Below are positions 10,211 through 21,678 of a stretch of DNA of 21,678 nt, one piece after another. Position 1 is the stretch's first letter. Each line of letters opens with the position of its first letter. Origin of the DNA: a virus (Duplodnaviria; Heunggongvirae; Uroviricota; Caudoviricetes); IMG/VR virus record IMGVR_UViG_2617271049_000016. One strand, given 5' to 3'. The position numbers and the translations under genes were made by a program. The notes beneath the pieces are model-generated. The model worked only from the letters and a program-made list of their open reading frames with translations, was not told the DNA's origin and searched no databases.

Positions 10211-10489
10211 TTACCTCCAGATCCGTTGCTGGAAAGTGCGGGACGCACGTGGTGGGCGTTCGGAATAAGGCAGCCTGACAGAGATTATCCAGTGCCGATA
10301 GTCGAGACTGAGAGCTTTCTTAACCTCGAACCCGCGCCTGCGGTAAGAATGAATCAGCCATTCGGCCTGTTCTGCAGTGCATGGAGGGTGCTGGAACCAT
10401 TCAGACTTGAATGCGTGAGAATACCGCCCGTGCGTGCAGGCAAGAACGGGCGAATTATCAGAATTGTAATATTTTGCGTTGCGTGCCAT
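10211..10489 (-). CDS. Hypothetical protein (92 aa), coupled to ydfU
   Basis: ATG at 10489 with a GGAGA SD 6 nt upstream; its stop overlaps the ydfU SD; protein-like composition. Confidence 0.45.
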   Translation of the reverse strand: MARNAKYYNSDNSPVLACTHGRYSHAFKSEWFQHPPCTAEQAEWLIHSYRRRGFEVKKALSLDYRHWIISVRLPYSERPPRASRTFQQRIWR

Positions 10490-10555
10490 CGGTTTTCTCC
10501 GGTGGCACGGTGTTACTCAGCGGGAGTTCAGCCCCGCGCAAGATTGTAGATGAGT

Positions 10556-10807
10556 TTATTCTCCTGAAAAAGCAGAAAAGCCAGCTTTTATTCCGATCTC
10601 TTTCAATGCCTGTAATGAAGTGACAAACTCACCTTCGCGCAAGATAAATCCGTCCGTGACCCGAGCATCCACAAAATTAATTAACGCAGCCCCATTCTTT
10701 CGCAAACACATAATGCGGTAATGACTAACAAGATTTCCATTTTCAACGCACACAGCATAGAGGCCATCTTCACAAAAAATTTTACGCAGTTCTTCGATGT
10801 TCATCAT
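10556..10807 (-). CDS. rem: Rem-like protein (83 aa)
   Basis: Intact ORF MMNIEELRKIFCEDGLYAVCVENGNLVSHYRIMCLRKNG...; position between ydfU and hokD. Confidence 0.7.
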   Translation of the reverse strand: MMNIEELRKIFCEDGLYAVCVENGNLVSHYRIMCLRKNGAALINFVDARVTDGFILREGEFVTSLQALKEIGIKAGFSAFSGE

Positions 10808-10937
10808 CAGAATCCTTCCGGATAATTAGCTCTCCCCTTTAAGGGACCATCCCTCTTATCCCTGCGCGCTACTTAAGTATTTTTGATTCTATTCCGGCAC
10901 CGTCAAGAACTTCAAACGCGTTGAAAATAAAAACAAA

Positions 10938-10955
10938 AACCCGCCGAAGCGGGTT
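10938..10955 (-). terminator. Rho-independent terminator downstream of relB-relE-hokD
   Basis: cccgc-cgaa-gcggg hairpin followed on the minus strand by TTTTTGTTTTT. Confidence 0.6.
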
Positions 10956-11023
10956 AAGTGCGGGTGCGTTGAGGATGCCTGCCACATCAGAGGTGGCGAG
11001 GGATTTCTCCCCCGCCGGGTCTC

Positions 11024-11179
11024 TTACTCCTCAGGTTCGTAAGCTGTGAAGACAGCGACCTCCGTCTGGCCGGTTCGGATTCGTACCTCGCAGAGGTCTT
11101 TCCTCGTTACCAGTGCCGTCACTATGACGGTTAAACAGATGACGATCAGGGCGATTAACATCGCCTTTTGCTGCTTCAT
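11024..11179 (-). CDS. hokD: Hok-family type I toxin (51 aa)
   Basis: Manual translation MKQQKAMLIALIVICLTVIVTALVTRKDLCEVRIRTGQTEVAVFTAYEPEE; too short for the ORF track. Confidence 0.85.
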   Translation of the reverse strand: MKQQKAMLIALIVICLTVIVTALVTRKDLCEVRIRTGQTEVAVFTAYEPEE

Positions 11180-11250
11180 AGCCTGCTTCTCCTGTCAACG
11201 CAAAGCAGAAGTGTCACCTTCGGTGCGAAACAGAGATGTCATGCTTTGGT

Positions 11251-11531
11251 TCAGAGAATGCGTTTGACCGCCTCGCTATATACTTCCGAGCGTTCTCTTT
11301 TCCCAACAGAAATCACGAAAACGACAACTTTCTCGTCTATAACCTGGTATACAAGGCGATAGACCGGAGCTTAATCTTGTAACAATCAGGCATACCACGG
11401 AGCTTGTTTGCTTCAATCCGGGGTGACTCAAGTACTTCAACCAGCTTCTTTTTCAACTGTTCACGTACCGTCGAGCCCAGCTTTCGCCATTCCTTTAGTG
11501 CCCGCTCGTCAAAATCCAGAAAATACGCCAT
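11251..11531 (-). pseudogene. relE: relE toxin gene with an apparent 7-bp deletion causing a frameshift (64-aa truncated product)
   Basis: N-terminal frame MAYFLDFDERALKEWRKLGSTVREQLKKKLVEVLESPRIEANKLRGMPDCYKIKLRS then shifts; the RelE C-terminus YRLVYQVIDEKVVVFVISVGKRERSEVYSEAVKRIL is intact in the other frame down to the native stop at 11251; about 7 nt are missing relative to RelE as I recall it. Confidence 0.65.
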
Positions 11532-11770
11532 CAGAGTTCATCCAGCGTCACACGTACTGGCTTAGGATTACGAAGCCGTTCTTTCACTATCTCCACAAGT
11601 TCAGCATCTTCATCACTCAGGAGTGTCTGTTTGAACGGCAAGCGTTCATTGTCAGCGATATACTCGAGCATGAGACGAAGCGCTTCAGAAGGAGTTACAC
11701 CCATTTTTTCAAGCGCGGCGTAAGAACGCGCTTTAAGTTCATCGTCAATACGCAGGTTAATGCTACCCAT
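11531..11770 (-). CDS. relB: RelB antitoxin (79 aa)
   Basis: MGSINLRIDDELKARSYAALEKMGVTPSEALRLMLEYIADNERLPFKQTLLSDEDAELVEIVKERLRNPKPVRVTLDEL; its stop overlaps the relE ATG. Confidence 0.9.
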   Translation of the reverse strand: MGSINLRIDDELKARSYAALEKMGVTPSEALRLMLEYIADNERLPFKQTLLSDEDAELVEIVKERLRNPKPVRVTLDEL

Positions 11771-11781
11771 GTCTTACACCT

Positions 11782-11807
11782 CTTGTAATTACAAATGTCA
11801 TTACAAG
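11782..11807 (-). promoter_or_regulatory. relBE operator/promoter region (relO-like inverted repeats)
   Basis: cttgtaattacaa and tgtcattacaag palindromic repeats starting 12 nt upstream of the relB start. Confidence 0.55.
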
Positions 11808-12100
11808 TATCGCACTACAACATGCTTAGGGCAAGTCACGAAGGAAGTCAGAAAGTAGTCGTAAGAACGGTGATCACTGTCCGCTTTGTGCCAGGAGCAG
11901 CCATTGCTAAGTCCATCCTGTATTGTGCAGGTCAGCTCGTTTTTAAAGAGTCCGGCCATCATCTTACTGGTACAGACACCATATACTTTGTGACGGTCAG
12001 GCTACATATGCACAACTCAACTTATTCATCTATTTTTTGCTTTAGCATGTCAGTGTTGCTTTCTCGTCGGCGGGTGAGCGGTGACCTGACCTGTCGATAA
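11795..12100 (+). CDS. ydfV: YdfV-like ORF (101 aa); coding status doubtful
   Basis: ORF at the Qin ydfV position; overlaps the relB promoter region; low-complexity composition. Confidence 0.3.
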   Translation: MSLQVSHYNMLRASHEGSQKVVVRTVITVRFVPGAAIAKSILYCAGQLVFKESGHHLTGTDTIYFVTVRLHMHNSTYSSIFCFSMSVLLSRRRVSGDLTCR

Positions 12101-12252
12101 AGGAACGTAACACGTTTTATGCAACACCCGCATGCGGCAGAAAATTATTGCCGAACGTTTACCCCTGTCAACAAGCTTTACTTTCTGAGGCGCGCCAGCC
12201 CGCGAGGAAAACAATCTGAACATCAAACAATTAATGACACAAGAAATACGAT

Positions 12253-12279
12253 TAAAGATTTTTTTGTGCATGCCGATAG
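12253..12279 (+). promoter_or_regulatory. Sigma-28 (FliA) class 3 flagellar promoter for flxA
   Basis: TAAAGATT, 11-nt spacer, GCCGATAG against consensus TAAAGTTT-N11-GCCGATAA; AGGAG SD follows before the flxA ATG. Confidence 0.75.
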
Positions 12280-12302
12280 TGCTTTTTTAAAAGGAGAAAT
12301 CT

Positions 12303-12635
12303 ATGTCTGTCACAATTCAGGGAAATACCTCAACCGTTATTTCAAACAACTCCGCCCCGGAAGGAACATCAGAAATAGCCAAAATCACAAGACAAATTCA
12401 GGTGCTGACTGAAAAGCTTGGGAAAATCTCATCGGAAGAGGGGATGACGACACAGCAGAAAAAAGAAATGGCTGCATTGGTACAGAAGCAAATTGAAAGC
12501 CTCTGGGCTCAACTGGAGCAGTTGTTAAGGCAGCAGGCAGAGAAAAAGAATGAAGACGCGACAGTTCAGCCTGATAAAAAAGAAGAGAAAAAAGACGATA
12601 CAAATACCGCTGGCACCATTGATATTTACGTCTAA
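12303..12635 (+). CDS. flxA: FlxA (FliA-regulated protein, 110 aa)
   Basis: MSVTIQGNTSTVISNNSAPEGTSEIAKITRQIQVLTEKLGK...; sigma-28 promoter upstream; terminator downstream. Confidence 0.85.
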   Translation: MSVTIQGNTSTVISNNSAPEGTSEIAKITRQIQVLTEKLGKISSEEGMTTQQKKEMAALVQKQIESLWAQLEQLLRQQAEKKNEDATVQPDKKEEKKDDTNTAGTIDIYV

Positions 12636-12649
12636 GTGACAGCCGTATT

Positions 12650-12672
12650 GTGGCCCTCATCGGGCCACTTTT
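12650..12672 (+). terminator. Rho-independent terminator of flxA
   Basis: gtggccc-tcatc-gggccac stem-loop followed by TTTT. Confidence 0.6.
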
Positions 12673-13071
12673 CGCCATCAGCCTTTTCTTTAAAGACATA
12701 TTATCTTTGTATCATTTCTGATAGTTAACATTACAAGATATAAGTAATGGACGCACTCCCAATTAGTCTATTTAAATCGCCACGAGTTTAACTGACAACC
12801 CATGATCAATTATGAATTGCAACTATTTCTGTAGTCACTTTTGTGGGGACAGTCCACAAAACTGCCAACTTCCGCTTCTTGCTCTTAGCGGACATTAGCA
12901 TAGGCTATTTACCATAACGCCTCATTACGCGCACCGCCCAGACTGACTCAGCGCGTTTCTGGCATATCCCCGGTAAAACAAGTAACAAACCACCCGAAAA
13001 TGAACACCAGAAACGCGACTTAAGAATCTACCCTATGAATGGATATGCACTCAACCGAATCGATCTTGGTT

Positions 13072-14281
13072 TCAATCTTTTTTATCGGGATCAGGCTTCT
13101 TTTTAGGTAACTTCGGGGGCTTAACTTGCTGATGACTTTGCGTTCGGCGCGTAAGCCAGGGATGGTCAGCTTTAGGTTTAACATAGTATTTTGAGCGTAA
13201 ATCAATACGGGCATTATCCACTCGTTCATGGACACTCTTTTCATCATCCAGTGGTATAGGCTCCGGGCCATCAACATACTTTTCCCAGCCCAGCGCTTTC
13301 CCGTCATACAGAACGTTAATTTCACCGTCAAAGTTCTCGCATACAGTAACAACCGAATGCCTAAGTCGATATCCCCGGCCCTCACTGCGTACCTGAAACG
13401 CACTGCTTTTGTACTGGAAAGTGAGATTTTTAGACAGAACGCGCTTCGCCTGTAGGCTGAAGATATAACCCAGTTCCTCTTCAGAATGGTGCACATCAAG
13501 ATGAGCATTATCAGTAGTACGAGGCGACGTAGCGAACCGGTTGTTATAGGCTTCAATAAAGGTCGGCAACCATGCATTTGGCATGGATTGGCTCGATGCC
13601 CAGTGTCTTTATCGCACGAGTGAACTGGGTCAGCTCACCTTCCCGCTCTGGGTTATTTACCCTGAATATACTCTGTCTATCAGAGTAGAGAGCGAGCGGT
13701 ACGCCATGATCATTAAGGTAACCCCGGAGGGTTTCCATGTAAGCCCGGGTTGTTTCAGCAGGCACAAAACGCAACGCCATCAACGCACTGGTGGCATCAT
13801 CAATGAAAACGATCAGTGTACATCTGGGGCCTCGATTTTCAAACCAGTCATGAGGTGAGCCATCAATCTGGATCAGTTCACCGTAAGATGGTCGTCGCAT
13901 GCGGCGTTGATATATACGGGCAATTTTACGACGGCGTTCACGCCATAACCCCTCTTCTATCATCCACTTTCTGAGAGTTTCAACGGATAAAGATAAACCG
14001 TGTATCTCGCGCAATTTTTCGCACGCAAACGTAGGTCCAAAATCAGCGTAACGGCCTTTGAGGAGTGAAATTACTGTTGCTCTGAATTCAGTAGAAAAGG
14101 AATTATTAGGACGCTTTCCACGTCGGTGGGAAACCAGACCAGAAGGCCCTTCATTTCTATACCGTTGCACCAGACGTTTAACCTGCCGAATAGAAATGCC
14201 AATGCGTGCCGCAGCTTGTTCCTGAATAATCTGAAGTCGGTGGAGTTCCTTATGACTCATCGTAACAGTCTCTTTGATCAT
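13072..14281 (-). pseudogene. rve-type DDE transposase/integrase-like gene (HTH plus integrase core), split across two frames by an internal deletion
   Basis: ORF A (13553-14281) has an HTH and the first two catalytic Asp (IQIDGS..., LYSDRQ); ORF B (13072-13584) has the post-catalytic NAWLPTFIEAYNNRF segment. The two frames overlap at 13553-13584 and the expected Glu-containing segment is absent. Confidence 0.6.
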
Positions 14282-14615
14282 GAAAAATCCCCCAGAGAAT
14301 TGTCTGGGGACATTTTAGAATGGTTCAAAGGGGACATTACAGCTTGGTGTTAACAATAGCCTGCTTCTCCGTGCCTTTCGGCACGTAAGAGGCTAACCTA
14401 CATGTGTCTAGCATGAAATTGGCCTCAGATTAATGTTAAGCGTCTTGCAGGACGCGTAATGTTAACTGGGGCTTTTCTCTATCTGCCGTTGGTGTCCATG
14501 CCCGAGGCAGATAGCCTCAAGCACCCGCAGTCATTCTACTTAACTAAGATTTCCCCGCAAACCGTTTTTGTCCAGCACAGTAAATATCCAACTAAACCAA
14601 TGGAGTTCGCTGTAT

Positions 14616-14795
14616 TTACCGCCAGTATTCAATGCACATGACCGCCATGAACACCCCTAAAAAAAGGGCATTTATATATCCAAATATTAATATCAAAACA
14701 TCAACTTTTTCCATATACCTTGCTGTGAAGATGATGGGCATACATGATGCGAACAACCAGAACGCAACAAACAAAAACTGCAATGCGTTTTTCAT
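14616..14795 (-). CDS. Small hydrophobic two-TM membrane protein (59 aa), function unknown
   Basis: ATG at 14795 preceded by AGGAGG with 5-nt spacing; MKNALQFLFVAFWLFASCMPIIFTARYMEKVDVLILIFGYINALFLGVFMAVMCIEYWR. Confidence 0.5.
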   Translation of the reverse strand: MKNALQFLFVAFWLFASCMPIIFTARYMEKVDVLILIFGYINALFLGVFMAVMCIEYWR

Positions 14796-15525: not shown

Positions 15526-15947
15526 CGTCTTTTATTTCGTGGTATGAGTAATTGCAGTAGTTAAAGAAAATTTCTTATGCTCCGTCATGAATTTCCTCAG
15601 GTGTTGCGTCATCGTCCACTTCGAATACATCCTCAAAATCTCCACCAGCTATTCCCGTTTCAATAATAATTTTGAACTTTCGCATTTCACTACCGCCCTT
15701 TCGGGCGGCCTCCTGATGTTCTGAGGGTGCAGAAATCCATCCGGTTAAGGATTAAATTTTATTTACAGAACTGAATTTAATTATTCAGATATACGTATCT
15801 GTAGCCTTACGAATCTACTCACTGGATGCCTCTTTCATAAAAATAATCCAGTGGGTTTTATCGTTTTTTCCCTGTTCGTTGACAGATAACAGGTTTTCTG
15901 TCTGTCAGTGCCAGAATCTGGCTTACCGGTATTTGCGTTTCATTCCA

Positions 15948-16304
15948 TTAAAAAATCAGAACGCCGTGCGGCCTCAACACCCGAAAGGCTTCTTTAAATC
16001 TCTGTCGCGAATCATCACGCCAGGCATCTTTATTCAGCCGTCCATATTTCTTTCCCATCCAGGCGTTATCACCAACACTCTCAAGATGCGGAGGGTCTAA
16101 TACAACCATCGAAAAAGATGCGTCTGCAAATGATAATGCACGAAAATCTGCGATAATGTCAGGGCTGATAATCAAGCGTCTCCCATTGCGTAATGTGTAT
16201 CCTTCTTTTCTGATATCGCTGAATATCGCCCGTTCGTCAGACTTATCGAACCAGAACATGCGGCTGCCACAGCACATATCAAGAATGGTTGCCGGTGCAC
16301 TCAC
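15948..16304 (-). pseudogene. N-terminal fragment (118 aa) of an amino-methyltransferase-like protein (motif I-like, DPPH motif), C-terminus missing
   Basis: ILDMCCGSR (motif I-like) and VVLDPPH (motif IV-like) about 55 aa apart; the ORF ends with no downstream continuation in any frame; the start overlaps the stop of the upstream 140-aa ORF. Confidence 0.45.
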
Positions 16305-16723
16305 TGCGCCACGTCCTGAAAATTACCCTGATAGAAAGCCAGTATGCGCTGCATAACTTCGCTCTTCCGGCACTCGCGACAGATTATGTTTAGGCGACTG
16401 TCGTAGCGACGTATTTCTCCGTCAGGTGATGACCAGATAAGGTCCGGATCAACCACAGCAGGTTTCTTCACCTTTGCCCTCGAGAGTTTTTTGCGGGCGT
16501 TTTGCCAGTCCTTACGCGCCTGTTCAGAGGGGAATAACCCGTAGCCGGAGTTGTATACATCGCCACTGGCTACCAGCTCTCTGGCAAGAACGCTCATCAG
16601 ATATCTAGTCGCACCTGTTTTAGCTTCCAGTTGCCGTAACGTCTCACGGCCGCTCTGGCGCACGAGTTCCACCACCTGCCATTTAATTTTTTCCCGCTCT
16701 TCTTGTGTAAAAACTTTTGCCAC
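16301..16723 (-). CDS. Hypothetical protein (140 aa), translationally coupled to the methyltransferase-like gene
   Basis: Intact ORF MAKVFTQEEREKIKWQVVELVRQSGRETLRQLEAKTGATRYLMSVLAREL...; ATGA overlap with the downstream gene. Confidence 0.5.
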   Translation of the reverse strand: MAKVFTQEEREKIKWQVVELVRQSGRETLRQLEAKTGATRYLMSVLARELVASGDVYNSGYGLFPSEQARKDWQNARKKLSRAKVKKPAVVDPDLIWSSPDGEIRRYDSRLNIICRECRKSEVMQRILAFYQGNFQDVAQ

Positions 16724-16763
16724 AAGTCCCCCTTAAAATTACCTCATGACCTGAAATCAACAC

Positions 16764-16988
16764 TTATCCTCTGAAACCAGGCGGAATTTCTGTATCCGGT
16801 TCAGAAATATGATTAACACAACGCTGTACAGGTGAACGTCCCAGGCGGATGACCAGTTCGTCCCATTTTTCGCGGAGCTTTGACGGGCTCATGATGTTTT
16901 TTACCCAGAATGGATCTCGCTGAACCCGACCAAACATTTCGCAAATTTGTCTGTGGCTTCTGCCATCCAGCATCCGCATTGTGCGCAC
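16764..16988 (-). CDS. Hypothetical protein (74 aa) with a possible HTH, divergent from the dicB operon
   Basis: Intact ORF ...SHRQICEMFGRVQRDPFWVKNIMSPSKLREKWDEL...; function not recognised. Confidence 0.35.
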   Translation of the reverse strand: MRTMRMLDGRSHRQICEMFGRVQRDPFWVKNIMSPSKLREKWDELVIRLGRSPVQRCVNHISEPDTEIPPGFRG

Positions 16989-17095
16989 GTCATTGGCCCA
17001 GGCAGTCCAGTTATCCGGCGTTAATTGTTAACTGGTTAACGTCACCTGGAGGCACCAGGCACTGCATCACAAAATTCATTGTTGAGGACGCGATA

Positions 17096-17284
17096 ATGAA
17101 AACGTTATTACCAAACGTTAATACGTCTGAAGGTTGTTTTGAAATTGGTGTCACTATCAGTAACCCAGTATTTACTGAAGATGCCATTAACAAGAGAAAA
17201 CAAGAACGGGAGCTATTAAATAAAATATGCATTGTTTCAATGCTGGCTCGTTTACGTCTGATGCCAAAAGGATGTGCACAATGA
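17096..17284 (+). CDS. dicB: DicB cell-division inhibitor (62 aa)
   Basis: MKTLLPNVNTSEGCFEIGVTISNPVFTEDAINKRKQERELLNKICIVSMLARLRLMPKGCAQ; GAGGA SD 9 nt upstream. Confidence 0.8.
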   Translation: MKTLLPNVNTSEGCFEIGVTISNPVFTEDAINKRKQERELLNKICIVSMLARLRLMPKGCAQ

Positions 17285-17472
17285 ATTCAGCATTTGTGCT
17301 TGTTCTGACAGTTTTTCTTGTTTCCGGAGAGCCAGTTGATATTGCAGTCAGTGTTCACAGGACAATGCAGGAGTGTATGACTGCAGCAACCGAACAGAAA
17401 ATTCCCGGTAACTGTTACCCGGTCGATAAAGTTATTCACCAGGATAATATCGAAATCCCGGCAGGTCTTTAA
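17281..17472 (+). CDS. ydfD: YdfD-like small lytic membrane protein (63 aa)
   Basis: MNSAFVLVLTVFLVSGEPVDIAVSVHRTMQECMTAATEQKIPGNCYPVDKVIHQDNIEIPAGL; ATGA overlap with the dicB stop. Confidence 0.7.
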   Translation: MNSAFVLVLTVFLVSGEPVDIAVSVHRTMQECMTAATEQKIPGNCYPVDKVIHQDNIEIPAGL

Positions 17473-17564
17473 AACAGTTCCGTAATAAATATCCGGTTTC
17501 ATTCTTATATGCCAGCAATGGCAGGGATTTGTTCATCCTTAAATCTGTCATGAGGTTAAAACAA

Positions 17565-20039
17565 ATGAGTAAAGTCTTTATTTGCGCCGCTATTCCTGAC
17601 GAACTGGCAACAAGGGAAGAAGGCGCTGTGGCTGTAGCCACAGCCATTGAAGCTGGCGACGAACGCCGTGCTCGAGCAAAATTTCACTGGCAATTCCTGG
17701 AACATTATCCGGCTGCTCAGGACTGCGCTTATAAATTTATTGTCTGCGAGGATAAACCTGGCATACCCCGCCCTGCCCTCGATTCATGGGATGCTGAATA
17801 TATGCAGGAAAACCGCTGGGATGAGGAGTCTGCTTCTTTTGTCCCGGTTGAGACTGAATCCGATCCGATGAACGTCACTTTTGACAAGCTGGCCCCTGAA
17901 GTACAGAACGCTGTCATGGTTAAGTTCGACACATGTGAAAACATCACCGTTGATATGGTTATTAGCGCACAGGAATTGTTGCAGGAAGACATGGCAACAT
18001 TCGACGGACATATCGTTGAAGCGTTGATGAAAATGCCAGAAGTTAACGCCATGTATCCGGAGCTTAAGTTGCACGCCATTGGGTGGGTTAAGCATAAATG
18101 TATTCCTGGTGCTAAATGGCCCGAAATTCAGGCAGAGATGCGCATCTGGAAAAAACGTCGCGAAGGTGAACGCAAGGAAACCGGAAAATACACGTCTGTT
18201 GTTGATCTCGCCCGCGCCAGAGCCAATCAACAGTACACTGAAAATTCAACAGGAAAAATCAGCCCGGTCATTGCTGCCATTCATCGCGAATACAAGCAGA
18301 CATGGAAAACACTGGATGACGAACTGGCCTACGCTCTCTGGCCTAGTGATGTGGATGCCGGAAACATTGACGGCAGCATCCATCGCTGGGCAAAAAAAGA
18401 AGTTATCGACAACGACCGCGAAGACTGGAAGCGTATCTCGGCATCAATGCGCAAACAGCCTGATGCCCTTCGCTACGACCGCCAAACTATTTTTGGCCTT
18501 GTCCGTGAGCGTCCGATCGACATTCACAAAGNNNNNNNNNNAGCACTGAACAAATATATCTGCGAATACCTGACGACAAAGGGCGTGTTTGAGAATGAAG
18601 AAACAGACCTGGGCACTGTTGATGTTCTCCAGTCATCAGAAACACAAACTGATGCAGTGGAAACTGAGGTATCTGATATCCCAAAAAATGAAACCGCGCC
18701 GGAAGCTGAACCATCTGTAGAGCGTGAGGGGCCGTTCTATTTCCTCTTCGCAGATAAGGACGGAGAAAAATACGGTCGCGCAAACAAACTCTCTGGTCTG
18801 GATAAGGCACTGGCTGCTGGCGCCACTGAAATCACAAAAGAAGAATATTTTGCCCGAAAAAATGGCACATACACGGGCTTACCGCAAAATGTAGATACCG
18901 CTGAAGATTCAGAACAACCAGAGCCGATAAAAGTTACCGCTGACGAAGTAAACAAAATTATGCAGGCAGCCAATATCAGCCAGCCTGACGCCGATAAGTT
19001 GCTTGCTGCATCACGTGGTGAATTTGTTGAAGGGATTAGTGACCCGAATGATCCGAAATGGGTTAAGGGGCTCCAGACCCGCGATTCTGTGAACCAGAAC
19101 CAGCATGAATCGGAACGGAACTACCAAAAAGCGGAACAAAACAGTCCAAATGCGTTACAAAACGAGCCAGAAACGAAACAGCCTGAACCAGTAGCGCAAC
19201 AGGAAGTGGAAAAAGTCTGCACCGCCTGCGGTCAGACCGGCGGCGGCAACTGCCCTGATTGTGGCGCGGTGATGGGCGACGCAACATACCAAGAAACATT
19301 CGATGAAGAGTATCAGGTTGAAGTTCAGGAAGATGATCCGGAGGAAATGGAAGGCGCTGAACATCCACACAAGGAGAACACTGGCGGCAATCAGCATCAC
19401 AATAGCGATAATGAAACTGGCGAGACGGCAGATCACCCAATTAAGGTGAACGGTCATCACGAAATCACATCCACCAGCAGGACGTGTGACCATCTAATGA
19501 TCGACCTTGAAACCATGGGAAAAAATCCTGATGCCCCGATCATCTCAATAGGTGCAATATTTTTCGATCCGCAAACCGGAGATATGGGACCGGAATTTAG
19601 TAAGACTATCGATCTGGAAACTGCTGGCGGAGTCATTGATCGGGACACCATTAAATGGTGGCTTAAGCAATCACGCGAAGCGCAATCTGCCATTATGACC
19701 GATGAAATCCCGTTAGATGATGCACTGTTACAATTGCGAGAATTTATCGACGAAAACTCCGGTGAATTTTTTGTTCAGGTTTGGGGAAATGGAGCCAACT
19801 TCGACAACACGATTTTGCGCCGTTCATACGAACGGCAGGGGATCCCCTGCCCGTGGCGTTACTACAACGATCGCGATGTACGCACAATCGTTGAGCTGGG
19901 GAAAGCCATAGACTTCGATGCCAGAACGGCTATTCCATTCGAAGGTGAGCGCCATAATGCACTTGATGACGCCCGTTACCAGGCAAAATACGTTTCAGTT
20001 ATCTGGCAAAAACTGATCCCGAGTCAGGCTGATTCTTAA
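17565..20039 (+). CDS. ydfE: Large prophage exonuclease-family protein (824 aa): YdfE-like N-terminal domain, RecE-like acidic linker with a Cys4 zinc ribbon, C-terminal DEDDh (DnaQ-like) 3'-5' exonuclease domain; contains a 10-N gap
   Basis: ATG at 17565 with GAGG 9 nt upstream. C-terminal motifs MIDLETMG (Exo I), VWGNGANFD (Exo II) and [13 protein letters not shown] (Exo III). [31 protein letters not shown] resembles the RecE linker as I recall it. The frame is maintained across the N-run. Confidence 0.7.
18531..18540. other. Run of 10 N (assembly gap or masked bases) inside the exonuclease gene
   Basis: Literal n characters in the sequence; the only ambiguous bases in the window. Confidence 0.99.
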
Positions 20040-20111: not shown

Positions 20112-20363
20112 ATGAGCGAAGTAATCATGATTGTCTCTCCCGGCAAATGGGTATCCGAAGAGCAGTTAATTGCGCTGAAAGGAATAAAAAAAGGTACGTT
20201 AAAAAAGGCCCGGGAAAAATCGTTTATGGAAGGAAGGGAATATAAGCATGTCGCTCATGACGGTATGCCATGGGATAACAGTCCATGCTTTTACAACCTG
20301 GAAGAAATTGATCGCTGGATTGAGCGCCAGGCATCAGCGAGACCAAGACGTCATCTTACTTGA
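20112..20363 (+). CDS. Excisionase (lambda Xis-like, 83 aa)
   Basis: EGREYKHVAHDG resembles the lambda Xis DGREYLFHE region; position immediately upstream of int. Confidence 0.6.
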   Translation: MSEVIMIVSPGKWVSEEQLIALKGIKKGTLKKAREKSFMEGREYKHVAHDGMPWDNSPCFYNLEEIDRWIERQASARPRRHLT

Positions 20364-20397
20364 CTAAAAGCCACACTAACTAATGAGAGAAGTTGAA

Positions 20398-21678
20398 ATG
20401 AAATATCCGACAGGCGTGGAAAACCATGGAGGGAAATTACGTATCTGGTTTGTTTATAAAGACGTAAGAGTCAGGGAAAATCTGGGGGTTCCTGACACAG
20501 CAAAAAACAGGCGCGTTGCAGGTGAACTACGCTCCTCTGTTTGTTACGCAATAAAAACTGGTGTTTTCGACTATGCAAAACAGTTTCCCTCCTCACGCAA
20601 TCTGGAAAAATTTGGTGAGGCCCGACAAGATTTAACCATAAAAGAACTGGCTGAAAAATTTCTGGCACTGAAAGAAACTGAAGTCGCCAAAACATCACTC
20701 AACACATACCGTGCCGTCATCAAAAATATCCTGAGCATAATCGGTGAAAAAAATCTTGCCTCATCGATTAATAAAGAAAAATTACTGGAGGTTCGTAAAG
20801 AGTTACTGACTGGATACCAGATCCCCAAAAGTAACTATATTGTTACACAACCAGGGAGATCGGCTGTAACTGTAAATAATTACATGACAAATCTTAACGC
20901 CGTGTTCCAGTTTGGTGTTGATAACGGTTACCTGGCAGATAATCCGTTTAAGGGGATCTCGCCATTAAAGGAATCAAGAACCATTCCGGATCCTCTTTCG
21001 CGGGAAGAATTTATCCGTCTTATCGATGCGTGCAGAAATCAGCAAGCAAAAAATTTATGGTGTGTTTCTGTTTATACTGGAGTTCGCCCTGGTGAGCTGT
21101 GTGCACTTGGATGGGAGGACATAGATCTGAAAAATGGAACAATGATGATCAGGAGAAATTTAGCAAAAGACCGTTTCACGGTACCAAAAACACAGGCGGG
21201 AACCAATCGGGTCATTCATCTTATTAAGCCAGCAATCGACGCTCTCCGGAGTCAGATGACATTAACGAGACTGAGCAAAGAGCATATCATTGATGTTCAC
21301 CTCAGAGAGTATGGCAGAACAGAAAAACAAAAATGCACCTTTGTTTTTCAACCTGAAGTGTCAGCGAGAGTAAAAAATTATGGTGACCATTTTACCGTTG
21401 ACTCAATAAGGCAGATGTGGGACGCAGCGATAAAACGTGCCGGACTCCGCCATCGAAAATCATATCAGTCGAGACATACTTATGCCTGCTGGTCGCTGAC
21501 AGCTGGTGCTAACCCGGCATTTATAGCAAACCAGATGGGCCATGCAGATGCGCAAATGGTATTTCAGGTATACGGAAAATGGATGTCTGAAAACAATAAT
21601 GCACAGGTAGCTTTGTTAAATACACAGTTAAGCGAGTTTGCCCCAACCATGCCCCATAACGAAGCAATGAAAAATTAA
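20398..21678 (+). CDS. intQ: Tyrosine site-specific integrase (426 aa from ATG at 20398), apparently intact, stop at window end
   Basis: Catalytic signature ...YTGVRPGEL..., ...SRHTYACW... and ...MGHADAQMVFQVYGKWM...; terminal position reading toward the presumed att site outside the window. Confidence 0.8.
   Translation: MKYPTGVENHGGKLRIWFVYKDVRVRENLGVPDTAKNRRVAGELRSSVCYAIKTGVFDYAKQFPSSRNLEKFGEARQDLTIKELAEKFLALKETEVAKTSLNTYRAVIKNILSIIGEKNLASSINKEKLLEVRKELLTGYQIPKSNYIVTQPGRSAVTVNNYMTNLNAVFQFGVDNGYLADNPFKGISPLKESRTIPDPLSREEFIRLIDACRNQQAKNLWCVSVYTGVRPGELCALGWEDIDLKNGTMMIRRNLAKDRFTVPKTQAGTNRVIHLIKPAIDALRSQMTLTRLSKEHIIDVHLREYGRTEKQKCTFVFQPEVSARVKNYGDHFTVDSIRQMWDAAIKRAGLRHRKSYQSRHTYACWSLTAGANPAFIANQMGHADAQMVFQVYGKWMSENNNAQVALLNTQLSEFAPTMPHNEAMKN

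What the first reader, a model, noticed from the sequence alone, without database searches (positions are those of the whole stretch)
16989..17095. dicB-ydfD toxic operon is present without the DicA/DicC control region or dicF found at this locus in K-12
DicB and the lytic YdfD are intact and head a plus-strand operon running through the exonuclease, xis and int. The DNA upstream of dicB contains no DicA or DicC homolog, no ydfABC and no dicF-like sequence. Instead there is a divergent 74-aa ORF with a possible HTH, and the 107-bp intergenic region carries the dyad-containing sequence GTTAACTGGTTAAC and an inverted CCTGG/CCAGG pair. How this operon is kept silent is therefore unclear.
Basis: partly seen in the sequence, partly recalled or inferred. 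Interest (0 to 1): 0.45.

Follow-up and report, generated by a model that had tools for sequence, protein, structure and literature searches.

The report
Promoterless dicB left by prophage deletion
A 3.1-kb deletion in a decayed Qin-type E. coli prophage removed the repressor genes, the only documented promoter of the toxic dicB-ydfD genes and the dicF RNA, so the genes are most likely silent through promoter loss rather than through an unknown regulator.

Summary
dicB (17096-17284) and ydfD (17281-17472) are intact and 100% identical to K-12. The window holds no dicA, dicC, ydfABC or dicF.

The cause is ordinary prophage decay. Compared with the intact relative phage PhiR42_1, 3106 bp are missing. 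That segment holds the first 239 codons of replication gene O, cII, dicC, dicA, their operators, the dicBp promoter, ydfABC and dicF.

The "74-aa ORF with possible HTH" is the C-terminal stump of O. Pfam finds no domain in it.

Of the 107-bp spacer, 84 bp are identical to K-12's own dicF-dicB spacer. The two dyads are hairpins of a conserved prophage RNA element, a sub-threshold relative of Rfam STnc100. The deletion cut that element in half.

The operon is therefore most likely silent because its promoter is gone. This step is inferred, not shown.

dicB loci lacking this control region are not rare. A cII-to-leader version occurs in 181 of 5426 complete E. coli genomes. The exact junction in this window was found nowhere else.

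One thing is odd. At least 12 different deletions end at the same nucleotide, TA|TCCGGCG, 84 bp upstream of dicB. This hot spot is unexplained.

The parts
16764..17012 (-). 3' remnant of replication gene O (codons 240-321 plus stop).
   Evidence: tblastn against O of PhiR42_1 gives residues 240-321 at window 17012-16767, 100% identity, E 1.2e-52. RefSeq annotates the KL53 equivalent as a pseudogene missing its N-terminus. No Pfam domain.
17011..17012 (.). Deletion junction ...CCAGTTA|TCCGGCG..., sharing only the TA microhomology. 3106 bp present in PhiR42_1 (L002 15586-18691) are missing here.
   Evidence: blastn of the window against L002, L001 and L003. Three-way junction alignment.
17012..17095 (+). 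Native dicB leader, identical to K-12, which is the 3' half of an STnc100-like structured element. P4 hairpin 17017-17043 contains GTTAACTGGTTAAC. P5 hairpin 17045-17059 is CCTGG/CCAGG. The 3' strand of P1 lies at about 17060-17068. A predicted hairpin at 17075-17100 covers the SD (GAGGA, 17083-17087) and the ATG.
   Evidence: 100% identity to K-12. RNA folds. RNAalifold on 16 variants. Pair counts. RF02076 matches 17009-17059 at 18.4 bits, and the intact K-12 element at 34.4 bits, E 4e-6.
17096..17284 (+). dicB, intact, 62 aa.
   Evidence: Pfam PF05358 at 1.9e-40 over the full length. Identical to K-12.
17281..17472 (+). ydfD lysis gene, intact, 63 aa, overlapping the dicB stop codon.
   Evidence: Pfam PF07358 at 3.9e-26. 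Identical to K-12.
17565..20039 (+). Intact 824-aa exonuclease. K-12 ydfE is its IS2-disrupted remnant.
   Evidence: Pfam Rv2179c-like exonuclease domain at 2.4e-67. RefSeq and phage annotations. K-12 homology stops at 18331.
20112..20363 (+). Excisionase.
   Evidence: Pfam DUF1233 at 1.6e-31. Annotation.
20383..21678 (+). Integrase, complete. The window ends at its stop codon, and rspB follows in strain KL53.
   Evidence: ORF list. KL53 and PhiR42_1 annotations.
16301..16723 (-). It normally sits downstream of O in the PR (dicCp) operon and has lost that promoter too.
   Evidence: Pfam PF06163 at 5.1e-29. Gene order in PhiR42_1.
15948..16304 (-). Class I SAM-dependent methyltransferase, in the same orphaned rightward early operon.
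   Evidence: Annotation. Weak Pfam Methyltransf_11 match.
10556..10807 (-). rem, which encodes the antirepressor of DicA. In this prophage it has no DicA to act on.
   Evidence: Annotated as rem in KL53 and PhiR42_1. Its function is described in PMC10448788.

Best explanation
This is a Qin-type lambdoid prophage at the K-12 Qin site next to rspB. It has lost its whole immunity and early-left control region in one or two illegitimate deletions.

The lost segment runs from codon 239 of replication gene O to a point 84 bp upstream of dicB. It contained:
- cII;
- dicC (cro-like) and dicA (cI-like);
- the divergent dicCp and dicAp promoters with their operators;
- dicBp (the PL equivalent) with its operators;
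- ydfA, ydfB and ydfC;
- dicF with its terminator;
- the 5' half of an STnc100-like RNA element.

What remains upstream of dicB is an antisense stump of O and the 3' half of that RNA element. The dyads belong to this half.

Shown: the deletion, its limits, and the identity of every remaining piece.

Inferred: because dicBp is the only promoter documented for ydfABC-dicF-dicB-ydfD, the dicB-ydfD-exo-xis-int block is now transcriptionally orphaned. It is silent, or nearly so, through promoter loss and not through repression. The genes to the left (O stump, DUF977, methyltransferase) have likewise lost dicCp.
For: - Collinear alignment to phage PhiR42_1 at 99.8-100% identity, with one 3106-bp gap at window 17011/17012.
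- PhiR42_1 annotation of the missing segment: O, cII, Cro/DicC, cI, YdfB and YdfC. DicA-type HTH_3 and P22_Cro domains are confirmed there.
- Operators TTGTTAGTCATAACTAACAA and a TTGACC-N17-TAATCT promoter lie between dicA and ydfA, inside the missing segment.
- PMC10448788 states that dicBp lies upstream of ydfA, is repressed 22-fold by DicA, and that no other promoter was found in the region.
- The window has no homolog of the missing genes and no DicF.
- No plus-strand sigma-70-like site with a usable -10 lies in 16300-17125.
- Sister deletions exist in independent complete genomes: KL53 type in 4 genomes, 042 type in 181, plus the PSJ-16 type.
Against: - No expression data exist for any strain carrying this junction.
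- Consensus promoter scans are weak evidence. The likely dicBp itself (the TTGACC-N17-TAATCT site) scores only 8 of 12.
- Cam et al. 1988, as cited in PMC10448788, proposed a second promoter upstream of dicB.
- Two 9/12 plus-strand promoter-like sites at 16109-16157 could give read-through, and the dicF terminator that normally precedes dicB is gone.
- The exact junction of this window was found in no other sequence, so it cannot be cross-checked.
Confidence: 0.82

Rival explanations
1. dicB-ydfD is not silent. It is expressed at a low constitutive level from fortuitous promoters antisense to the methyltransferase, DUF977 or O genes, or from a weak promoter in the leader. The deletion also removed the dicF terminator. 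Low DicB levels could be tolerated and even useful for phage exclusion.
For: - Two 9/12 promoter-like sites lie on the plus strand at 16109-16157.
- An older report proposed a promoter upstream of dicB (cited).
- DicB protects against phages that use ManYZ (PMC6832061).
- dicB and ydfD remain intact in 181 genomes of the 042 type.
Against: - The promoter-like count equals the shuffle expectation: 9 found against a mean of 8.8.
- Three terminator-like hairpins lie between those sites and dicB.
- The 2023 study found no internal promoter.
- A predicted hairpin occludes the SD and the ATG.
- Intactness may only reflect a recent deletion, since dicB is identical to K-12.
Confidence: 0.13
2. One reading: a replacement control module, in which the 74-aa or 140-aa protein binds the GTTAAC or CCWGG dyads and represses dicB.
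For: - The dyads are real and rare by chance.
- TGTTAA-N4-TTAACG loosely resembles the DicA operator half-sites TGTTAG/CTAACA.
Against: - The 74-aa ORF is an internal fragment of O with no start signal of its own and no HTH.
- DUF977 sits in the same position in intact phages that also carry DicA.
- The dyads are present unchanged in K-12 and PhiR42_1, 1.1 kb downstream of dicBp.
- The dyads form conserved RNA helices, with a compensatory change in P5 and different sequence but the same pairing for P4 in the Rfam STnc100 consensus.
- The operator spacing differs: 4 bp against 6 bp.
Confidence: 0.02
3. The junction is an assembly or consensus error in the source genome, and the true locus is of the KL53 type or is intact.
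For: - The window differs from its closest relatives by two deletions of about 100 bp: 103 bp at 17012 relative to KL53, and 101 bp at 13579/13580 relative to both KL53 and PhiR42_1.
- The junction occurs in no other sequence searched.
Against: - The junction follows the same rule as at least 11 independent natural junctions, with a TA crossover at the same nucleotide.
- Even if the 103-bp difference were an error, the KL53-type locus still lacks the whole control region.
Confidence: 0.03

Closest known systems
E. coli K-12 Qin cryptic prophage dicBF locus (dicC-dicA-dicBp-ydfABC-dicF-dicB-ydfD)
   Same: - Same chromosomal site.
- Window 2539-13256 and 17012-18331 are 99.9-100% identical to K-12, including the 84-bp leader, dicB and ydfD.
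   Different: - The window lacks dicC, dicA, dicBp, ydfABC and dicF.
- K-12 instead lacks the methyltransferase, DUF977 and O, and has an IS2-disrupted exonuclease and integrase.
- The two are different deletion derivatives of one ancestor type.
Escherichia phage PhiR42_1 (PV340562.1), a complete relative
   Same: 88% of the window aligns at 99.8% identity in the same gene order.
   Different: PhiR42_1 keeps the 3106-bp immunity, dicBp and dicF segment, plus 101 bp at window 13579/13580.
Sister deletion alleles in E. coli 042, KL53 and PSJ-16
   Same: They share the right end point TA|TCCGGCG and the same loss of dicA, dicC, dicBp and dicF, with dicB and ydfD intact.
   Different: The left end points differ: cII in 042 (181 genomes), O at 354 bp in KL53 (4 genomes), DUF977 in PSJ-16. 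The window's left end point in O, at 250 bp, is shared only with strain Res13, where it joins a different right site.
Rfam RF02076 STnc100 / PasD family of prophage sRNAs
   Same: - The intact K-12 dicF-dicB spacer aligns to all 206 model positions with the same helices.
- bioRxiv 10.64898/2026.05.13.724894 describes the family as prophage-borne.
   Different: - The score is below the curated threshold: 34.4 against 47 bits. The window keeps only positions 91-140, at 18.4 bits.
- Here the element is an internal operon spacer. Whether it is ever a discrete sRNA is unknown.
Int-promoted lambda b-region deletions anchored at attP (recalled from my own knowledge of the classical lambda literature)
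   Same: These are also families of deletions with one fixed end point and variable distal end points on one side only.
   Different: The fixed point here is not the prophage att. The att core is GAAATCCATAA, and no recombinase is implicated. This is an analogy only.

Membership tests
Qin-type dicBF operon | DicB protein (Pfam PF05358) | tested here: met
   136.8 bits over the full length; identical to K-12.
Qin-type dicBF operon | ydfD directly downstream, overlapping dicB | tested here: met
Qin-type dicBF operon | dicF sRNA (RF00039) upstream of dicB | tested here: not met
   Searches give no DicF hit in the window. The same model scores 76.7 bits in K-12.
Qin-type dicBF operon | dicA/dicC immunity genes with operators upstream | tested here: not met
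   tblastn E >= 0.69 for DicA and 5.1 for DicC; the segment is deleted.
Qin-type dicBF operon | dicBp promoter upstream of ydfA | tested here: not met
   The promoter region (L002 about 17569-17598) lies inside the missing 15586-18691.
Qin-type dicBF operon | Integration at the Qin site beside rspB | tested here: met
   Window 20519-21678 matches K-12 intQ. In KL53 the same integrase abuts rspB. The window itself ends at the int stop codon.
Lambdoid replication initiator O (for the 74-aa ORF) | Full-length protein of about 321 aa, including the N-terminal two thirds | tested here: not met
   Only residues 240-321 are encoded.
Cro/CI-type HTH regulator (for the 74-aa ORF) | A recognisable HTH domain | tested here: not met
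   no Pfam family at E <= 0.01. DicA and DicC of PhiR42_1 scored clearly in the same call.
DicA-type operator (for the GTTAAC dyad) | Palindrome TGTTAG-N6-CTAACA next to a promoter | tested here: not met
   Direct reading: the dyad is TGTTAA-N4-TTAACG. No promoter-like site is adjacent.
Rfam RF02076 STnc100 | Score at or above the curated gathering threshold (47 bits) | tested here: not met
   Intact K-12 element: 34.4 bits, E 4e-6. Window remnant: 18.4 bits, E 0.084.
Rfam RF02076 STnc100 | Same helix architecture, kept by compensatory changes | tested here: inconclusive
   The full-length alignment uses the same helices. Three of 32 pairs have double changes, and the covariation score is 0.073 against 0.040 in shuffles (0 of 500 shuffles reach it). 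P4 is invariant because the search pattern fixed it.
Rfam RF02076 STnc100 | Expressed as a discrete small RNA | not testable with these tools
   Needs Northern blots or RNA-seq.

The most novel reading that the evidence does not exclude
The left edge of the conserved block upstream of dicB (TA|TCCGGCGTTAATTGTTAAC, window 17011/17012) is a sequence-directed, one-sided deletion hot spot.

At least 12 independent deletions of 1 to 10.5 kb end at this nucleotide. They occur in E. coli chromosomes, IMG/VR prophage contigs and metagenomes. The left end points are scattered through ydfA, cII, O, DUF977, the methyltransferase and the ydfU region. The left sites share only TA, often TA-N-CC. No reciprocal products were seen.

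This pattern would point to a fixed DNA end at that position. Candidate causes are a polymerase pause, a site-specific nick, or a protein or structure barrier to resection at the hairpin-rich element. Such an end would repeatedly strip the immunity region, dicBp and dicF from Qin-type prophages while sparing dicB.
Probability: 0.45. Interest if true: 0.6.

Novelty: new variant of a known kind. Interest (0 to 1): 0.3.

Why it matters
For the finding as posed, the answer removes the puzzle. No hidden regulator needs to be sought, because the toxic genes have simply lost their promoter. Annotation should call the 74-aa ORF an O pseudogene.

The wider point is modest but useful. Work on DicB, DicF and DicA assumes the K-12 architecture. 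At least about 3.5% of complete E. coli genomes carry a dicB-ydfD copy stripped of dicA, dicBp and dicF: 181 genomes with the 042-type junction and 4 with the KL53-type junction. In these copies rem is an orphan antirepressor and DicB cannot be induced by the known routes.

If the shared end point reflects a real site-specific process, it would be a tractable example of directed prophage domestication.

Tried and rejected
Source of the window:
- I looked for it through exact-junction matches in complete E. coli genomes, GTDB representatives and metagenome contigs, and through the junction-spanning 124-aa ORF in the protein index. None was found.
- The 74-aa product is on record only in contigs where O is split by a mutation, not at this junction.

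dicA elsewhere in the genome:
- I could not test this. The source genome was not identified and the collection cannot be filtered by strain. It also matters little, because the operators and promoter are gone.

Causes considered for the hot spot:
- Prophage Int acting at an att-like site: the att core GAAATCCATAA is unrelated.
- Chi-limited RecBCD resection: there is no Chi near 17012.
- A Tus/Ter barrier or a XerCD dif-like site: only partial resemblance by eye, not pursued.
- An unusually stable DNA hairpin: z-scores are only -0.7 to -1.7.
- An IS element or its remnant at the site: none in about 340 loci.
- Recombination between the two similar motifs at L002 18197 and 18692: the window junction crosses in TA, not in the shared GCGTTAAT.
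- Selection alone: it cannot give single-nucleotide precision.

Ascertainment caveat: scans 2 to 4 required TCCGR at the boundary. Only scan 1 and the BLAST-derived loci are unbiased for end points to the left of the boundary.

Full report
**1. What is at the coordinates**

The spacer 16989-17095 lies between the GTG of a 74-aa minus-strand ORF (16764-16988) and the ATG of dicB (17096).
- dicB (17096-17284) and ydfD (17281-17472) match Pfam DicB and DUF1482 over their full lengths.
- They sit in a stretch, 17012-18331, that is 100% identical to K-12 MG1655.
- Downstream on the same strand are an 824-aa exonuclease, an excisionase and a complete integrase.
- GTTAACTGGTTAAC (17027-17040) and CCTGG-N5-CCAGG (17045-17059) are each unique in the window and are not expected by chance.

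**2. The control region is absent**

- tblastn with DicA, DicC, cII, YdfA-like, YdfB and YdfC from a complete relative finds nothing in the 21.7-kb window. The best hit has E = 0.026, for a 21-residue cII fragment.
- Rfam finds cspA-type leaders and a sok RNA but no DicF. A permissive scan of 16800-17300 also finds none.
- The same DicF model scores 76.7 bits in K-12.

**3. Why it is absent**

The window is a Qin-type prophage. In strain KL53 the same integrase abuts rspB, as intQ does in K-12.

Phage PhiR42_1 aligns to 88% of the window at 99.8% identity and in the same gene order. There is one 3106-bp gap, at window 17011/17012, corresponding to L002 15586-18691. According to the phage record and Pfam, the missing DNA holds:
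- the first 239 codons of O;
- cII;
- Cro/DicC (P22_Cro domain);
- cI/DicA (HTH_3 domain);
- a YdfA-like ORF, ydfB and ydfC;
- dicF.

Reading the phage sequence shows the palindromic operators (TTGTTAGTCATAACTAACAA and relatives). It also shows a TTGACC-N17-TAATCT promoter between dicA and ydfA. Ragunathan et al. 2023 (PMC10448788) state three things:
- the polycistronic dicBF transcript starts at dicBp, upstream of ydfA;
- DicA represses dicBp 22-fold;
- they found no evidence for another promoter in the region.

They note that Cam et al. 1988 had suggested a promoter upstream of dicB.

**4. The 74-aa and 140-aa ORFs**

- The 74-aa ORF is residues 248-321 of the 321-aa O protein. Identity continues to residue 240, exactly at the junction. 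Its GTG is an internal valine codon. The sequence upstream of the GTG, AACTGGACTGCCTGGGCCAATGAC, has no good Shine-Dalgarno match (direct reading). Pfam finds no domain in it.
- RefSeq marks the KL53 counterpart as a pseudogene missing its N-terminus.
- The 140-aa ORF is the DUF977 gene that follows O in intact relatives. It is not specific to this deletion allele.

**5. The dyads**

Eighty-four of the 107 bp (17012-17095) are the unchanged K-12 sequence upstream of dicB. The other 23 bp are O coding sequence.

In 198 distinct natural variants, a block from +1 to about +60 after the junction is nearly invariant, more so than the dicB coding sequence. Positions +4 to +28 were fixed by my search pattern, so only +29 to +60 count as evidence. 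A second conserved block lies 40-90 nt upstream, and a hypervariable spacer of 20-55 nt separates the two. RNAalifold predicts five helices:
- P1: GAUGCGGUG/CACCGCAUC, a closing stem;
- P2: a small hairpin;
- P3: GGA/UCC, closing the variable spacer;
- P4: contains the GTTAAC dyad;
- P5: the CCUGG/CCAGG hairpin.

Covariation is modest. Three pairs have changes on both sides, including one in P5, and the covariation score is 0.073 against 0.040 in shuffles.

The intact K-12 element aligns to all 206 positions of Rfam STnc100 (RF02076) with the same helices, at 34.4 bits and E 4e-6. That is below the 47-bit threshold. In that consensus P4 has different letters but the same pairing. The window keeps only model positions 91-140, at 18.4 bits.

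STnc100 is a prophage-borne sRNA family related to PasD (bioRxiv 10.64898/2026.05.13.724894). The dyads are therefore best read as RNA helices of a truncated STnc100-like element, not as operators. A further predicted hairpin (17075-17100) covers the SD and the start codon.

**6. How dicB is kept quiet**

- Shown: the only documented promoter and both repressor genes are gone.
- Inferred: the operon is orphaned.

The supporting evidence is limited.
- The consensus scan finds no plus-strand site within about 940 bp upstream of dicB.
- My own scan finds nothing at 8/12 or better with a usable -10 in 16300-17125. This is weak, because the likely dicBp site itself scores only 8/12.
- The nearest candidates (16109-16157) are at chance frequency and are separated from dicB by terminator-like hairpins.

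I put promoter loss at about 0.8 and low-level read-through at about 0.13.

**7. How common the arrangement is**

| Junction type | Complete E. coli genomes (of 5426) |
|---|---|
| Intact dicF-to-leader joint | 3950 |
| cII'\|leader (strain 042 type) | 181 |
| O'\|leader (KL53 type) | 4 |
| This window's junction | 0 |

The window's junction is also absent from GTDB representatives, from metagenome contigs and from the protein index. The window is closest to KL53 on the left flank, with 1 mismatch in 3436 bp, but has 103 bp less of O.

**8. The unexpected part: a shared end point**

Every deletion allele I found ends on the right at the same nucleotide, TA|TCCGGCG (L002 18691/18692). The left end points, in L002 coordinates, are listed below.

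| Left end point (L002) | Location | Example |
|---|---|---|
| 17657 | ydfA 5' UTR (keeps dicA, dicC and dicBp) | L165 |
| 16606 | cII | L216 |
| 16588 | cII | L210 |
| 16528 | cII | 042 type |
| 16338 | cII | L333 |
| 15693 | O | KL53 type |
| 15585 | O | this window |
| 15177 | DUF977 | PSJ-16 |
| 15124 | DUF977 | L245 |
| 14852 | methyltransferase | L142 |
| 8640 | ydfU region | L050 |
| 8143 | ydfU region | L247 |

Three more junctions have left partners that are absent from PhiR42_1.

- The left sites share only TA with the right site. C follows at +2 in 9 of 11 and at +3 in 8 of 11, which resembles TATCC.
- No product keeping the left flank of the site with a new right partner exists in IMG/VR.
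- Strain Res13 uses the same left end point in O as this window. There it is joined to TA|CCCGCGTTAATAGCTAAC at the end of ydfC, a sequence resembling the hot-spot motif.
- The site is exactly the boundary between the variable spacer and the P3/P4 core of the RNA element.

Caveat: three of my four pattern scans required TCCGR at the boundary. Even so, a dozen different partners at one nucleotide cannot arise from random end points, and the unbiased scan gave 3 of 3 at this site.

I could not identify a mechanism. The prophage att core, Chi, an IS remnant and exceptional hairpin stability were checked and rejected. Ter and dif showed only partial resemblance by eye and were not pursued. A fixed DNA 3' end or a protected end at this position, followed by pairing at TA(N)CC, fits the pattern. 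That remains conjecture.

**9. Verdict**

This is a new deletion allele of a well-known locus and of low interest in itself. The recurrent end point is the only feature that deserves follow-up.

Noticed in passing
window 17011/17012 (L002 18691/18692); loci L001, L004, L005, L030, L038, L050, L142, L165, L210, L216, L245, L247, L333 and others: At least 12 different deletions (1-10.5 kb) in E. coli genomes, IMG/VR contigs and metagenomes share the right end point TA|TCCGGCG, 84 bp upstream of dicB. The left partners are scattered and share only TA(N)CC. No reciprocal products were found.
   Followed up: partly
L006 2573/2574 (E. coli Res13-Lact-ER02-39), compared with window 17011/17012: Res13 uses the identical left end point in O (...CCAGTTA|). 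There it is joined to TA|CCCGCGTTAATAGCTAAC at the end of ydfC (L002 18197), a motif similar to the hot-spot sequence. dicB in that strain is split by IS3.
   Followed up: partly
window 17012-17068; K-12 L003 17433-17642: The dicF-dicB spacer is a sub-threshold STnc100 (RF02076)-like multi-helix element: two conserved blocks around a hypervariable spacer of 20-55 nt. The same blocks precede genes other than dicB in other prophages, and some lie among tRNA genes. A bona fide STnc100 (143.7 bits) sits elsewhere in L213 (1401-1594).
   Followed up: partly
window 13579/13580: The window lacks 101 bp that are present in both KL53 and PhiR42_1, inside an ISNCY-family transposase pseudogene. The junction has a TTG microhomology. 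This is the second deletion of about 100 bp that is private to this window.
   Followed up: partly
window 14355-14526 (-) and ORF 14459-14641 (+): A second sok-type antisense RNA (Rfam sok, 104 bits) overlaps a 60-aa ORF on the opposite strand. It is probably a hok/sok-like locus in addition to hokD, and it is unannotated in the KL53 record.
   Followed up: no
window 10556-10807 (-): rem, the antirepressor of DicA, is retained although its target DicA and the operators are deleted. It is an orphan antirepressor.
   Followed up: no
window 16910-17284 (+): A 124-aa ORF starts antisense inside the O stump and runs in frame through the leader into dicB. In K-12 and mEp460_ev081 the in-frame extension starts at a GTG 12 nt left of the junction (annotated as a 94-aa DicB in LR597641). 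The deletion replaced that N-terminal extension.
   Followed up: no
window 315-2538 (ORF 1849-2553, minus strand): A minor tail protein L gene (Pfam 1.1e-100) lies in a segment absent from both K-12 and KL53. KL53 has truncated terminase genes at that position. This is another, different decay scar at the left end of the prophage.
   Followed up: no
L339 (PPompW_EH1846) 3250-3516; L340 (mEp460_ev081): Where DicB is only 61% or 87% identical in protein, the dicF-to-leader DNA is still about 99% identical to K-12. There is a mosaic boundary just inside dicB.
   Followed up: no
L002 18577-18964 (PV340562.1): The PhiR42_1 record does not annotate dicB. It carries antisense hypothetical ORFs over dicF and dicB instead.
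   Followed up: no
L331 (JAGZPX010000007.1): A contig in a MAG labelled Veillonella parvula carries this E. coli prophage sequence exactly. This is probably a binning contaminant.
   Followed up: no
L341-L348: The exact 74-aa product is also called in metagenome contigs where a full-length O gene is split into 243-aa and 74-aa ORFs. O is therefore disrupted by point mutation in other lineages too.
   Followed up: no
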